From contig OX597814.1 in NCBI GenBank assembly GCA_951406725.2, forward strand, positions 110,918,001 to 110,982,000: a stretch of DNA of 64,000 bases, written 5' to 3'. The notes beneath the pieces were generated by a model. The model saw only the letters and a list, made by a program, of their open reading frames with translations. It searched no databases and had not been told where the DNA came from. Numbering within the stretch: the first letter of the stretch is position 1; each line of letters begins with the position of its first letter. Positions 6,201 through 49,500 of the stretch are shown piece by piece. Both the position numbers and the translations under genes were made by a program. This DNA comes from Octopus vulgaris (Eukaryota).

Positions 6201-9200
6201 CCCAGTATGTAACTGGTACTTATTTAATTGACCCCAAAAGGATGAAAGGCAAAGTTGACCTTGGTGGAATTTGAACACAGAACGTAATGGCAGACAAAAT
6301 ACCGCTAAGCATTTCGCCCGGTGTGCTAATGTTTCTGCCAGCTCACCGCCTTCATTGCGCTCTTCTGTCACATGTCTCATGTCTGAGGTTCAGGAAGAGC
6401 AAAAGTATTTGTAGAATATCTAAGATGTGTATTAGACTGGAACGAAGCCTTCAGAGGAGGGCTGCCTGTCAGGGGTTGAAGATAAACGTAAGATCTCCAC
6501 TGAAGGGGACGGCTTGTTGTTGTAGCATTCTTTCTTGAATGGAAATGATTTTAATTTTCTTTGAATTTTGCACAAAATGATCTTTGTGAGTTTAGAGATG
6601 AGGTTCCTGCTAAAAAAAGTATCAACTTGGTTAGATTTAGTTGGATATTGTACAAATAATTGTATGATTATCTTTTACTTGCCTCAGTCATTAGACTGTG
6701 ACCATGCTGGGGCACGGCCTTGAAGAATTTTTAGTCACTGGACGATGACAGGATAAGAGGGAGCTTGCACTCATGTCAGTTTGCAGTGACTACCTTTCTG
6801 GTCCCTTAGTGGCTGAAGAGGAGATAACCTCTCCGAAATGCATGCATTCAACAGTCTGGTCAAGAGAGAGACTTGGTTTGTTTACACCTATTTGTCAACA
6901 GCGAGAAGTTTTCTCCATGACAAAATGCAGTGAATGGCTATCTTATACATTCAAATATACCTCAAGCATATTTAAACTAGTAACCAGTTTGTATCAATAT
7001 TTTTTATCCCCTTCTGGCCTTGTGCCAAAATTTGAAATCAATATTTTTTTTTATCCCTTTGCAAAGCAAATGATCTGTGATGTGTCCACTTTGATTATAG
7101 ATCGAATGAATGCAGCGGCTTTTGAACCATCTGCTCTATCTCAGCCGTCACCGACTGGACCAAAAGAAAGTGGTGAGTTCTCTCTATCTACATAGTGTGT
7201 GGCATTAAAATAACGACCTCCAGACTTCTTTATAATCACCTTGACCAACCAGTCTGTCAGGCGTCCATTTGACACCACTAGTCACAGCATGCTGTCCACT
7301 CCTCTCTGGATCGCGCCTTTCTCATCCACGTGATCCCAATCGTCCTCCTGAAATTGTAATTCCACTGTCGTGTAGGCCTTCCAAGTGGTCATTTCCGCTC
7401 GTGCAGGTACCACTTGACAACTGCATGGTCCACCGATTATCGGTGATCCGAGCGATGTGTCCAGCCCATCTAAACTTGCTGCGTGTATACTCTGCGATGA
7501 CATCCCTCACACCGGACTTCTCTCTGATGACCTCACTGCTGCTATGCTCTCAACGAGATTCCAAGCATTGACCTTTCCATGGTCCTTTGAGCCATTACCA
7601 GTCTCTGCTCTTCTCTCTTTGTTGTAGCAGTGAAACATGACCTCCGGACTTCTTTATGATATAAACCATTTATTGAGCCAATTTCTGCTGGTGTTCTTCG
7701 TGTTAGAAATAACAGCTGAGTCTTTTCCAAATTATGCTCTGTCTTTAAAAGGTGGGATGGTCATGACTAGAATATCTTTGTTTACTCATTTCTTGGATCA
7801 GGGCTGACCTGATTTAACAACAACAACAACAATAGCTGCTGTTAGAATTATTAACCCTTTTGATATGATTCCACCTGAGACTACCTTTGATTTTGTGATA
7901 CAAACACTTCACATTTTGAGGTTAAAAACCTGCCATCGAAATTTCATAATGAGTTATTTTATTAAATTATTCATTATTTTTGAAATTAATTATGGTTACA
8001 AAAGGGTTAATGAATGATATGAGAGAGAAGCAAAAAAAAAAAGAGAAATTTATATTTGTTTCTTTTCCTTTGCAAATGTTTTGTTTCTCCATCTTTATAG
8101 ATTATCATCATCACCAACTTTTCTGTTTTTGCATGAATCAAATGGAATTCATTAAAACAGATATGCACACACACACATTTAGTGCAGGCATTGTTGTGCA
8201 TTTGAGAAACTTGCTTGCCAACCATGTGGTTTTGGATTCAGTGCCATAGTGTGGTACCTTGGGCAAGTGTCTCTTCTCACAGACTTAAAGCCAACTGCAG
8301 GTTTCTGAATGGATTTGGTAGATGGAAACCAGAAGAAGTTTGTCGTGTGTGTTTGTGTGTATCTTTGCCTTGACATCACATGACAGTTGTAAATGAACAT
8401 CACCAGCCGGTGGGGGGGTATTATAACGGTCAGTAGCAGGAAGAGTATCTGGCTGTGGAAAAGCTGCCTCAACAAATTCCATCTAACTCAGGAAAGCATG
8501 GAAAATGGATGTTAAAATGATTATATATATATATATATATGGTGTAGGAGTGGCTGTGTGGTAAGTAGCTTGCTTACGAACCACATGGTTCCGGGTTCAG
8601 TCCCACTGTGTGGCACCTTGGGCTCTCTACTATAACCTCGAGCCAACCAAAGCCTTGTGAGTGGATTTGGTAGACGGAAACTGAAAGAAGCCTGTCGTAT
8701 ATATGTATGTGTGTATATGTTTGTGTGTCTGTGTTTATCCCCCCAACATTGCTTGACAACTGATGCTGGTGTGTTTACTAGGCTTACAAAGAATAAGTCC
8801 TGGGGTCGATTTGCTCGACTAAAGGCAGTGCTCCAGCATGGCCACAGTCAAATGACTGAAACAAGTAAAAGAGTATATTCACAATTTAGGTTAGTTGAAA
8901 TATGTTTGTCACATATTTCAACTGCTAAAGGCAAATGCACTGCAGTTATTGTGGAGAAAAAAATTTCTCTTATGGTAAAAAAGTGTGAAAACACCCCATT
9001 TGTTCATCTATCAGGAATCTGAGACATCGATGTTTCGAGTTTGTTGACTCTTGACGATCAGATGTACCTGAGAGGGACAACTCTGAACGAATTGACAAAG
9101 CTTATAGCTTTATATATAATTCAGCCAACACATTGACTGAATTGTGCTAGTAGATCACTAGTAGATCCACGGTAACTGCAGTGTATTTGCCCTTAGCAGT

Positions 9201-46500: not shown

Positions 46501-49500
46501 CTCGACCTTGAAAATTAAACAAGAAACAAAAGAGTCTAGAAAAGATGGTTATGATATTTAGAAAGAATCTAACATTTTTAGCTTTGATTACTAGAAGTGA
46601 TTTCTAAATTTTAATCATAAATTCAGAGGAATTATATAGTTTTCTGTTATAATACCATTCCTAAGTAGGATTTATTATAGAAATCTAAACTAAACCCAGT
46701 ACTTAAGGGAAACCACAAGAGTGCAAAGGGAGAGAGGGGAGGGGAAAGGGAAAGCAGTGAATGATAAAGCACAGGTATATAGAGGAGCAACAAGATAACA
46801 AAGATACAGTTGGCAAGGGGGAGGACAGGCGAGAGATAATAAAGTGGCATTGGGCCTCAGGAATGTGTGTGTGTGTGTGTGGGGGGGGGGGGGGGAGACA
46901 AGCATAGTGCATGGCTTGTGTGCGTGTGTATGTGTATATATATATATATATATACTAGCAGTATCGCCTGGCGTTGCTCGGGTTTGTAAGGGAAATAACT
47001 ATATAAGCATTTTTAGAGATGTAAAGTATAATAGCCATCTCAATATGGCTAACCACAAAGGGGGGGGTGTTACTGTAGCTTTTTACATTCTGAGATTTAA
47101 TAATAAATTTTTAGAGAGTTACTTCCCTTATATATGCCAAAAATGCATTAAAAATGGGAAAAATTGATGGTAAATTATTTTTAAAATCGTAGACTCATCA
47201 TAGACGCGCACTAATACCCAGAAGGGCTCGATATGAATCACGACTTGTGGGCAATAAAGAAACAGATATGAATCACGACTATAAGATACCCGGTTTTGGT
47301 TAAACTGCACCGCAAAATGTGGGAGTAGTTAGGAATCTAAATCGTAGGAGACAGACAGCACACAACCTCACTTTTATATATATATATATATATATGAGAG
47401 GTTTTGGTATCCAGAAGATCTAAAAGGCAGGTAAGGCGATGTAAGGATCACTGTTATACTCCCGGTTTGGTAATAGCATGAATGAGGAGTCTAACATGAA
47501 TCATGTGTGAGTGTGTATCTGTTAAATAAAATGAAACAAGAAAGCCAAGGCAGTGTGAAATTTCTAGGACATTTTATAAAGAAAAGGTAGTCTTACAGCT
47601 GTTTCAGGGATATAAAAAATATCCCTTCACCAGAGATGATATGAGAGAGTTAAATAGAGAGAAATAGCAGGGTTCAATATAAGAAGTTATTTTGGAAAAG
47701 GAATGGTAGAGTTCTAGCAATGTCCTAGAAAATACACACTGCCTCGGCCTTGTTGTCTCATTTTATTTAACCTCTCTCTCTCTCTCTCTCTCTCTCTCTC
47801 TCTCTATATATATATATATATATATATATATATATATATATATATATATATATATATATATATATACACACACACACAATATTAAATATACAAACATGAA
47901 CATTAATCATATAAAAGGAACAGGCAAATCAACCCTTGTACTTGACTAATACTTATTTTAATCCCCTTGGCAAGATGAAAGCAAAGGCAACCTTGATGGA
48001 AGTTAAACTAAGAACATAAAGAGACATAACTAAATACTACAAGACATTTTGTCTATCATGTTACTGATTCTGCTCTTCATCACCCTTTATTATAACAACT
48101 CTATGTAAGTGTGGGATGTCATTAAGTGTATTGTCACTTATAAGTCATAAGGGTCTACGGACAAGAAGAAACTTGTGAAATATGGGTTTACTGCCAGTAA
48201 GCCAACGAGAGAGTAAAGTTGGTATTTTATGAATGACATCTTTTGTTATGAGGAAACAAATCTTACTAGACTGTTTGGTCAGTAAATAACTTACCCAGAC
48301 TGCTGAAAGCCATAGTCTTTGCTACTTTGTCTTGAAGTTGTGCCGCCATACTTAAGTGTTTCTCTTGATAACGTACAGCTTCTTCATGGTTTCCAAGAGA
48401 TTCATGAGATAAACCAAAGTTTCCATATGCTCTGCCTGTAATAACAATAATAATTTCTAATATAAATACAAAGACCACAAATTTGTGGAGAGGTTGGATG
48501 ATTAAACAGACCCCTAGTATTTGACTGGCACTTTATTTTATAGATCTCAGAAAAATGAAAGGTGAAGATGACCTCATCAGGATTTGAACTTAAAATATAA
48601 AGGGTCAGAACAATAATATGCAATGCTATAATGATTTTTGCCAATTAACAATACTAATAAAAATTTTCCTCTCAATTTTCTTAGATAAAAGACCCTTCCT
48701 ATCTCGGAATTAGAAAATCTCATTTAACCTGACTAGGACAACTAGTTCTATGACACAAAGCATTATATTTTAAAGTGAATCATCATCATTTAATGTCCAC
48801 TTTCCAGATGTTGACTGGATTGGATGGTTTGTTAGGATCTGGCAAATTCCAGGGCCACATCAAGCTCCCTTTGTCATAATTTTATACTAAAACCTTTCAT
48901 TAACCTATATTTTAGATGCCAGATTACTAATGAAAAAGAAAAATAATTTACTAAATCTATTCCAAATTCTTGATTATTTTCAGAGTTAATTGAAAAACAC
49001 TATCTTTGTTTAATGTCCATCTTCCATGTTGAAATGAGTTGTACAGTTCAACAGGATCTGAGGAGCCAGAAGACGGCATTAAAGCTCTAATGTCTACTTT
49101 GGCATTACTTCCAATGCTAGATGTCCTCCCTAACACCAATTACTCTACAGAATGTACTGAGTGCCTTTTTTTCTTTTTCGTGGAATTAGGGTCACTATTT
49201 CATCTATCAGTCTACTGATTGATGAACACAACGTTCCCCACAATGATGCTAAATGATGCTTCACAAGGTTTTACTGATCCCAATAAAGATGACTTAAGCA
49301 GTATCAGTGAAGTAAAGCCCCAACATATTCCTGACATAACTTTTGGCACCTCATAACAATAATACCTATTTCTTTACTACCTACAAGGGGCCAAACACAG
49401 AGAGGACAAACAAGGACAGACAAACGGATTAAGTCAATTATATCGACCCCAGTGCATAACTGTACTTATTTAATCGACCCCGAAAGGATGAAAGGCAAAG

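What the first reader, a model, noticed from the sequence alone, without database searches (positions are those of the whole stretch)
8880..47770. Recurring fold-back plus minimal hammerhead architecture in unrelated elements
Seen: four inverted-repeat elements with no evident similarity to each other (8880-9239, 9541-9943, 10007-10377, 47521-47770), each carrying an intact or decayed hammerhead scaffold, plus a lone one at 6806-6855. Established: Penelope-like elements often leave inverted terminal fragments and carry such hammerheads. Inference: either a class of ORF-less, Penelope-mobilised ribozyme-bearing fold-back elements, or a stereotyped insertion product retaining only the ribozyme-bearing end. 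A TIR-based annotator would probably mislabel them as MITEs.
Basis: partly seen in the sequence, partly recalled or inferred. Interest (0 to 1): 0.72.

Follow-up and report, generated by a model that had tools for sequence, protein, structure and literature searches.

The report
Two-ended Penelope insertions carrying hammerheads
The four mirror-image repeats are real but are not a new kind of element: they are separate, made-on-the-spot insertions of four common jumping-gene families (two ends of protein-coding Penelope-like elements, two small ribozyme-bearing repeats likely copied by the same enzyme), and their regular "one long end, one short end" shape hints that the enzyme likely writes into both sides of one DNA cut.

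Summary
All four fold-backs and the lone hammerhead are real, and each belongs to a dispersed family. The fold-back is not the unit that spreads: outer ends sit at two fixed sites (short end S, tailed end T), inner junctions vary, and flanking duplications vary in length (32 of 36 family-C copies have 6-15 nt). 9541 (B) and 47521 (D) are 3' termini of decayed RT + GIY-YIG Penelope-like elements (PLEs). 8880 (A), 10007 (C) and 6806 (E) are ORF-less 340-353-nt tandem monomers of retrozyme type; no coding partner sharing their ends was found. A's core is a family-wide U3-A8 variant, not decay. In family C, 50 of 51 classifiable fold-backs have exactly one tail, and in 31 of 47 each arm holds sequence the other lacks, so neither arm is a copy of the other. 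Likely mechanism: target-primed reverse transcription from both strands of one staggered cut, using the two PLE start sites. Inverted pLTR plus one-sided tail is published PLE anatomy, and this scan noted the same pattern on other DNA. Ribozyme cutting and expression are untested.

The parts
6737..6990 (+). Family E: 5'-truncated single copy (no inverted arm) of a ~345-nt tandem-monomer family, distant relative of A
   Evidence: ends read from the alignment, approximate
6806..6855 (+). Family E minimal type I hammerhead: core boxes and palindromic loop III kept, 5' strand of stem I broken in this copy
8876..9165 (-). Family A sense arm (340-nt ORF-less monomer), outer end at the short site S
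9017..9063 (-). Family A hammerhead, U3-A8 core variant with covarying stem I; this copy has A6 changed
9166..9283 (+). Family A inverted arm including the ~37-nt tail (9240-9279), outer end at site T
9503..9540 (-). Family B degraded tail (site T), weakly supported
   Evidence: p=0.02
9541..9946 (.). Family B fold-back: two clipped 3' termini of a coding RT + GIY-YIG PLE; broken hammerhead remnants on both arms (9631-9665 minus, 9797-9832 plus)
9951..10006 (-). Family C tail (site T), abutting the short end of B; a 7-nt duplication lies at 9941 and 10383
10007..10377 (.). Family C fold-back: inverted arm to about 10140, junction with 6-nt overlap, sense arm ending at site S (353-nt ORF-less monomer)
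10171..10215 (+). Family C minimal type I hammerhead, intact core, inside an extended stem I hairpin (10137-10250, z -3.7)
47397..47520 (-).
47521..47772 (.). Family D fold-back: sense arm on the minus strand, 53-nt inverted arm (47719-47771) ending at site S; 3' terminus of a coding RT + GIY-YIG PLE
47591..47636 (-). Family D minimal type I hammerhead with palindromic loop III; this copy has A6 changed

Best explanation
Each fold-back is a one-off insertion scar with fixed outer ends and a variable inner joint, likely made when a Penelope-like RT/GIY-YIG enzyme copied a hammerhead-bearing RNA into both sides of one staggered DNA cut. Shown: B and D are 3' termini of coding PLE families; A, C and E are ORF-less 340-353-nt tandem monomers; all end at one of two fixed sites (S, T); fold-backs nearly always pair one S with one T; family C copies carry variable AT-rich duplications. 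Inferred: the nuclease nicks both strands a few bases apart; each 3' end primes reverse transcription on element RNA, one at site S and one at site T; both cDNAs stop early at variable points and are joined head to head by microhomology or filler bases. Inferred: A, C and E borrow the enzyme in trans. The hammerhead rides along because it lies 35-200 nt upstream of the start sites; it likely processes multimeric transcripts as a dimer but does not set the joint.
For: Ends and joints in family C: 69 fold-backs among 87 distinct loci, 51 with both ends classifiable: 50 S+T, 1 S/S, 0 T/T (the looser scoring read one locus, L328, as T/T). Of 47 two-piece S+T copies the S arm reaches further 5' in 31, the T arm in 13, equal in 3; joints overlap in 26, are blunt in 4, have inserts in 17. 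Duplications >=6 nt in 32 of 36 against 12% in mismatched flank pairs, >=8 nt in 21 of 36 against 1.4%. Other families: A 4 of 4 classifiable S+T; B 6 S+T and the window copy S/S by script; D 4 S+T, 1 S/S, 1 T/T. Long coding copies follow the rule: 5 of 5 for B, 2 of 2 for D, and a young coding PLE with 766-nt arms 100% alike and one tail (L169). Coding link: 16 of 24 GIY-YIG-like loci carry the B terminus downstream, 17 of 28 a D-like terminus (my count from its table); RT motifs and nuclease lie in one locus with D ends (L370); whole-ORF homologs have RT then C-terminal nuclease. Literature: inverted pLTR, optional one-sided tail, 8-10-bp TSD (PMC3846280; PMC8557442); two internal RT start sites that bracket the tail, both strands cut and extended, dimer predicted, hammerhead not needed for insertion in vitro (PMC11167929).
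Against: No coding element sharing termini with A, C or E among 107 coding-PLE loci, so their mobilisation by a PLE rests on the footprint alone. No intact ORF was found for B or D; Pfam support for their domains is below cut-off (GIY-YIG E 0.003-0.04; none; RVT_1 E 0.004 for homolog P0002). Loci are top BLAST hits, not random draws, so fold-back rates (C 19 of 30 and 22 of 29, A 10 of 25, B 15 of 19, D 9 of 25) are biased. 18 of 69 C fold-backs had an end that could not be classed. Exceptions exist (D: L059 S/S, L073 T/T; C: one S/S). Arms within a copy are only slightly more alike than arms of different copies (94.1% vs 93.4%), so one versus two template molecules is open. Window copies of A and D show no clear duplication. 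A two-ended priming step is inferred from genomic scars only.
Confidence: 0.85

Rival explanations
1. The fold-back itself is the mobile unit: an ORF-less hairpin RNA or MITE-like element with long terminal inverted repeats and a central ribozyme.
For: A whole-element query returned 40 of 40 scored places as full-length matches with the same outer ends; 30 of 30 fetched were fold-backs.
Against: That set was selected for full length. Sets picked on the core or on one arm show scattered inner junctions and many copies with no inverted arm. No left- or right-specific variants are shared between copies. Duplications vary from 4 to 15 nt. Tandem head-to-tail monomers exist.
Confidence: 0.04
2. Same PLE origin, but the inverted arm arises by self-priming: the first cDNA (or an antisense transcript, as proposed in PMC3846280) folds back and is copied.
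For: Junction overlap in 26 of 47 copies, many inside the self-complementary extended stem I; published proposal from palindromic junctions; shared non-majority variants between arms exceed permutation (11 vs 2.3, driven by two copies).
Against: In 31 of 47 copies the tailed arm is the shorter one, so each arm has sequence absent from the other and cannot be its copy. A multimeric or antisense template could still allow it.
Confidence: 0.08
3. A, C and E are not moved by PLE proteins but by another route (rolling-circle RNA plus a LINE RT, or DNA-level satellite spread), and the resemblance to PLE scars is convergent.
For: No coding partner with shared termini among 107 coding-PLE loci; the retrozyme preprint discusses local tandem amplification.
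Against: Two fixed 3' sites 35-55 nt apart, one-sided tail, 5' inversion, variable duplication and (AT)n targets match the coding PLEs of this genome; no poly(A) end in the alignments.
Confidence: 0.05

Closest known systems
Complex insertions of endonuclease-positive Penelope-like elements (PMC3846280, passages; PMC8557442, passages incl. Fig. 2 legend)
   Same: 5' truncation, partial tandems, adjacent inverted truncated copy, tail at one end, short duplication, microsatellite targets, hammerhead in the terminal repeat; B and D sit downstream of RT + C-terminal GIY-YIG with a Zn-finger-like linker.
   Different: Tails here are about 37 (A), 40 (B), 55 (C) and 125 nt (D) against the 30-40 nt described. 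The papers call the tail optional or often one-sided; here it is on exactly one arm in 50 of 51 family-C fold-backs. Clade was not fixed by a tree.
Metazoan non-LTR retrozymes (PMC7229834, section 14 and passages; bioRxiv 10.64898/2026.07.22.740005, part 1 of 5 and passages)
   Same: A, C, E and the L208 family are ORF-less 340-359-nt tandem units with one type I hammerhead each, like the 350-390-bp mussel repeats; circular folds are stable for A, C and L208 (z -4.5, -4.4, -3.5) but not E (z -0.3).
   Different: Circular RNA and self-cleavage are not shown here. In the passages I saw, neither paper describes tails or inversions: 'inverted' and 'opposite' have 0 hits in PMC7229834; 'tail' has 0 and 'inverted' 1 hit, not displayed, in the preprint.
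Minimal hammerheads of PLEs (PMC4209133, parts 1-2 of 4)
   Same: Type I core, bulged base before stem II, palindromic loop III for dimer activity, U3-A8 core variant, and pairs of motifs 100-700 bp apart on opposite strands, all described there.
   Different: Family A also has C or T at position 4 and an extended covarying stem I; activity untested.
Anole Poseidon element PAc in vitro (PMC11167929, parts 1-2 of 4)
   Same: Two internal RT start sites bracket the tail; both DNA strands are cut and extended at AT-rich sites; hammerhead is dispensable for insertion.
   Different: The paper gives no one-of-each rule for inverted products in the parts read; whether sites S and T here are RT starts is inferred by analogy.
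MITEs / TIR DNA transposons (PMC8969392, passages)
   Same: Short, ORF-less, flanked by inverted repeats, high copy number.
   Different: Variable inner junction, one-sided tail, variable duplication length, tandem monomers and RT-encoding partners for B and D.

Membership tests
EN+ Penelope-like element (B, D) | RT followed by C-terminal GIY-YIG nuclease upstream of the terminus | tested here: met
   Broken copies only: D; B; Pfam scores below cut-off
EN+ Penelope-like element (B, D) | Inverted 5'-truncated copy plus one-sided tail | tested here: met
   exceptions L059, L073
EN+ Penelope-like element (B, D) | Hammerhead in the terminal repeat | tested here: met
   D motif located in 24 of 25 copies, perfect core boxes in 16; B core conserved but stem I weak and G12 often lost
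EN+ Penelope-like element (B, D) | RT phylogeny inside a named PLE clade | not tested
   No tree built; a Zn-finger-like linker as in Neptune/Nematis was read from translations only
EN+ Penelope-like element (A, C, E) | Own ORF or coding partner with shared termini | tested here: not met
   Closed 340-353-nt monomers; no match in 107 coding-PLE loci
Non-LTR retrozyme (A, C, E) | Short ORF-less tandem unit with one type I hammerhead per unit | tested here: met
   two consecutive full cores seen in L020, mostly partial tandems elsewhere
Non-LTR retrozyme (A, C, E) | Highly self-paired monomer | tested here: inconclusive
   z -4.5 (A), -4.4 (C), -0.3 (E); A and E monomers were pieced from old copies
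Non-LTR retrozyme (A, C, E) | Self-cleavage and circular RNA in vivo | not testable with these tools
   Only contigs of runs not on record as RNA were offered
MITE / TIR transposon | Fixed internal structure between terminal inverted repeats | tested here: not met
MITE / TIR transposon | Duplication of fixed length | tested here: not met
   4-15 nt in 36 family-C copies

The most novel reading that the evidence does not exclude
PLE insertion is two-ended by design: one ribonucleoprotein dimer primes from both nicked strands and uses its two RT start sites once each, which is why inverted insertions carry exactly one tail; and animal retrozymes carry this footprint, which would be direct genomic proof that PLE proteins mobilise them.
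Probability: 0.5. Interest if true: 0.6.

Novelty: new member of a known kind. Interest (0 to 1): 0.32.

Why it matters
The architecture is known, so the finding itself is ordinary. Two points remain useful. First, how PLEs form their inverted and tailed structures is called undefined in PMC8557442; the 50-of-51 one-tail count and the arms' mutually private sequence give a sharp prediction for the existing in vitro system. Second, the link between retrozymes and PLEs rests on co-occurrence and sequence relationship in the parts of the papers I read; PLE-type scars on ORF-less monomers add mechanistic evidence. Practical: such copies (family C roughly 14,000 by extrapolating 4 places in 800 kb) would look like MITEs to a terminal-repeat screen.

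Tried and rejected
Rfam scan: no hammerhead family hit; not informative for minimal motifs. Pfam GIY-YIG search of the genome found coding PLEs, including an intact 781-aa family, but none of the 42 fetched stretches shared termini with A-E apart from one B fold-back inserted in L164 and a separate C-like copy in L169. Junctions tied to the ribozyme cut site: 6 of 94 inner ends within 4 nt of it, about 4 expected; rejected as unsupported. Same-molecule origin of both arms: weak signal, left open. Expression: no RNA holder listed for the L208 monomer; contigs laid cannot show starts, strand or level; no evidence either way. Folding of the window's own hammerhead regions was significant only for C. 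Reading a conserved motif shared by C and the L208 family as a PLE ORF remnant: considered by eye, not convincing, dropped. First alignments of A and D mixed orientations and were redone. Literature searches for twin priming in Penelope, octopus hammerheads, retrozyme duplications and MITE misclassification gave listings only, none evidently on point; subscription papers and Repbase/Dfam were not searchable, so absence from print is not established. Supplements of the papers were not read and may hold such counts.
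Full report
SETTING. The window is C1:110918001-110982000 of G000, a 2.8-Gb animal genome. The closest database homolog of a family-B reverse transcriptase is labelled Octopus vulgaris by its source. I name the elements A (8880), B (9541), C (10007), D (47521) and E (6806).

OBSERVATION. The inverted repeats are present. Rfam gives no hammerhead. A minimal type I descriptor finds one perfect motif in the window, in C, against 0.13 in shuffles, and D with one core change. 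Every element is a member of a dispersed family: first-look candidates 4016 (C), 1899 (A), 1666 (D), 3195 (B), 367 (E), 40 scored each (these are not copy numbers). Across relatives the ribozyme is conserved: perfect core boxes and cut site in 26 of 30 C copies, D motif in 24 of 25, E in 20 of 20, B in 17 of 18 with frequent loss of G12. A carries U3 and A8 in 20 of 22 copies and a stem I pair that is C-G in 10 and G-C in 9; a U3-A8 core is described for Schistosoma PLEs (PMC4209133). Two coding B copies show a fully palindromic loop III (L384, L398). The four families are unrelated outside the ribozyme, but E resembles A (z 10.6) and C resembles a young family met by chance in L208 (z 10.3).

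WHAT THE UNITS ARE. C is a closed 353-nt monomer seen head to tail in L020, L023 and L030; A is 340 nt; E about 345 nt. None has room for an RT. This fits non-LTR retrozymes (mussel repeats of 350-390 bp, PMC7229834 section 14). D extends about 900 nt upstream to a microsatellite and then into a frame with a cysteine linker and GIY-YIG-like motifs. Of 28 further loci with that nuclease, 17 have a D-like terminus within 1.5 kb, the closest 87% alike to the window copy (counted by me from the table); L370 holds RT motifs, nuclease and D ends together. B likewise follows a nuclease remnant in L089; 16 of 24 such loci carry the B terminus, three with an RT active-site motif upstream. Whole-ORF homologs have RT then nuclease. 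Pfam scores for these divergent, broken frames are below cut-off or absent, and no intact ORF was found for B or D.

FIXED OR VARIABLE ARMS. A whole-element query gave only full-length fold-backs, which is selection. Sets picked on the ribozyme core or on one arm gave 19 of 30 and 22 of 29 fold-backs with scattered inner junctions. Outer ends fall at two sites, S (about +206 from the core) and T (about +261). Pooled over 87 distinct C loci: 69 fold-backs, 18 with an unclassifiable end, 51 classifiable, of which 50 S+T and 1 S/S; a looser scoring read L328 as T/T. A: 10 of 25 fold-backs, 4 of 4 classifiable S+T. B: 15 of 19, 6 S+T, window copy S/S by script though a degraded tail aligns at 9503-9540 (p=0.02). 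D: 9 of 25, 4 S+T, 1 S/S, 1 T/T. Long coding copies obey the rule (B 5 of 5; D 2 of 2), as do a young coding PLE with 766-nt identical arms (L169) and the young L208 array. Duplications of 6 nt or more flank 32 of 36 C copies against 12% of mismatched flank pairs, lengths 4-15 nt; the window's C copy has a 7-nt one, A and D lie in microsatellites and show none clearly. Arms have no side-specific variants; within-copy identity 94.1%, between 93.4%.

ENRICHMENT TEST. In 80 blind 10-kb stretches a strict descriptor gave 14 hits at 8 loci against 0-2 in five shuffles; inverted repeats cover 4.1%; 2 of 8 loci lie in them (p=0.03; seven of the 14 hits are the one L208 array) and 2 of 84 inverted repeats hold a strict motif. 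A relaxed descriptor marks 8 of 84 against a control mean of 3.3. So hammerheads tend to sit in fold-backs, but most fold-backs have other origins.

MECHANISM. Shown: two fixed 3' sites, one-of-each pairing, variable joints (overlap 26, blunt 4, insert 17 of 47), variable duplications. In 31 of 47 two-piece copies the tailed arm is the shorter one, so each arm has sequence the other lacks; a simple fold-back copy of the first cDNA cannot give this. From the literature: the anole PLE protein cuts and extends both strands at AT-rich sites, starts RT at two internal sites that bracket the tail, is predicted to be a dimer, and does not need hammerhead cleavage to insert (PMC11167929). Inferred: both nicked strands prime, one at S and one at T, both cDNAs stop early and are joined head to head. 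Inferred: A, C and E use a PLE protein in trans; no partner with shared termini was found among 107 coding loci. Inner ends are not concentrated at the ribozyme cut site (6 of 94). Palindromic loop III suggests dimer-dependent cleavage of multimeric RNA (PMC4209133); untested.

COMPARISON WITH WHAT IS KNOWN. An adjacent inverted pLTR, a tail optionally at the 3' end of one inverted pLTR and 8-10-bp duplications are described in PMC3846280 (passages), which proposes antisense self-priming; PMC8557442 (passages) says the tail is often at one end only and that the cycle is undefined; PMC4209133 notes paired motifs on opposite strands. A 2026 preprint argues that animal retrozymes are non-autonomous PLE derivatives from distribution and phylogeny (part 1 of 5 and passages). 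PMC8969392 was seen as passages. I found no paper on two-ended priming in PLEs in one search (listing only), which is weak. Earlier notes of this scan reach the same reading on other DNA, including this genome; they are unchecked AI notes and came after my own tests of ends, tails and duplications.

VERDICT. Real, explained, mostly known: new members of PLE terminal insertions (B, D) and of retrozyme-type monomers (A, C, E), not a new fold-back class. The one-tail count and the PLE footprint on ORF-less monomers are the parts worth keeping. Interest 0.32.

Noticed in passing
L208:2097-4768 (G000:C1, about 20.00 Mb): Young 359-nt hammerhead array (units 98-99% alike): five cores on one strand, two on the other, one S and one T end, inserted in an (AT)n tract; met in a blind sample; distant relative of family C.
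   Followed up: partly
L169:1321-4483: Young 5'-truncated coding PLE (574-aa frame, RT and GIY-YIG by Pfam) with a 766-nt inverted arm 100% identical to its 3' end, tail on one arm only, hammerhead with a C at core position 4.
   Followed up: partly
L166:1745-4087 and many places: Abundant PLE family with intact 781-aa RT + GIY-YIG frames; my descriptor found no sense-strand hammerhead near it.
   Followed up: partly
window 9941-9951: Family C inserted exactly at the short end of family B, duplicating 7 nt of it: one PLE-type element targeting another's terminus.
   Followed up: partly
L358, L360, L362, L363, L364: Sister subfamily of D has C at hammerhead core position 4, and its ORF linker is asparagine-rich, recalling the N-rich inserts of rotifer PLEs (PMC3846280, passage).
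   Followed up: no
window 8880-8950 and 6945-6990: A and E share a stem-loop just inside site S with a compensated base pair, a candidate protein-binding or start element (read by eye).
   Followed up: no
window 45832-46096: 128-nt arms 98% complementary around a (CAT)n centre with a 9-nt spacer, no hammerhead hit; origin unexplained.
   Followed up: no
window 58848-59311: Inverted repeat with 123-nt arms (91%) whose outer part scores as tRNA in Rfam (59225-59297, 34.5 bits); possibly a tRNA-headed repeat in fold-back form.
   Followed up: no
window 17005-18324 and 36845-37150: Two more inverted repeats (119-nt arms 92% with a 1082-nt spacer; 113-nt arms 77%) without a strict hammerhead hit.
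   Followed up: no
window 38584-58562 (minus strand): Exons of a long TPR-repeat protein gene (TTC28-like by recall, not tested); element D lies between frames at 46220-46603 and 50687-51550, so likely in an intron.
   Followed up: no
window 12782-13222 and 45325-45714: Frames that look like remnants of non-LTR retrotransposon RT and nuclease (recalled motifs, not tested).
   Followed up: no
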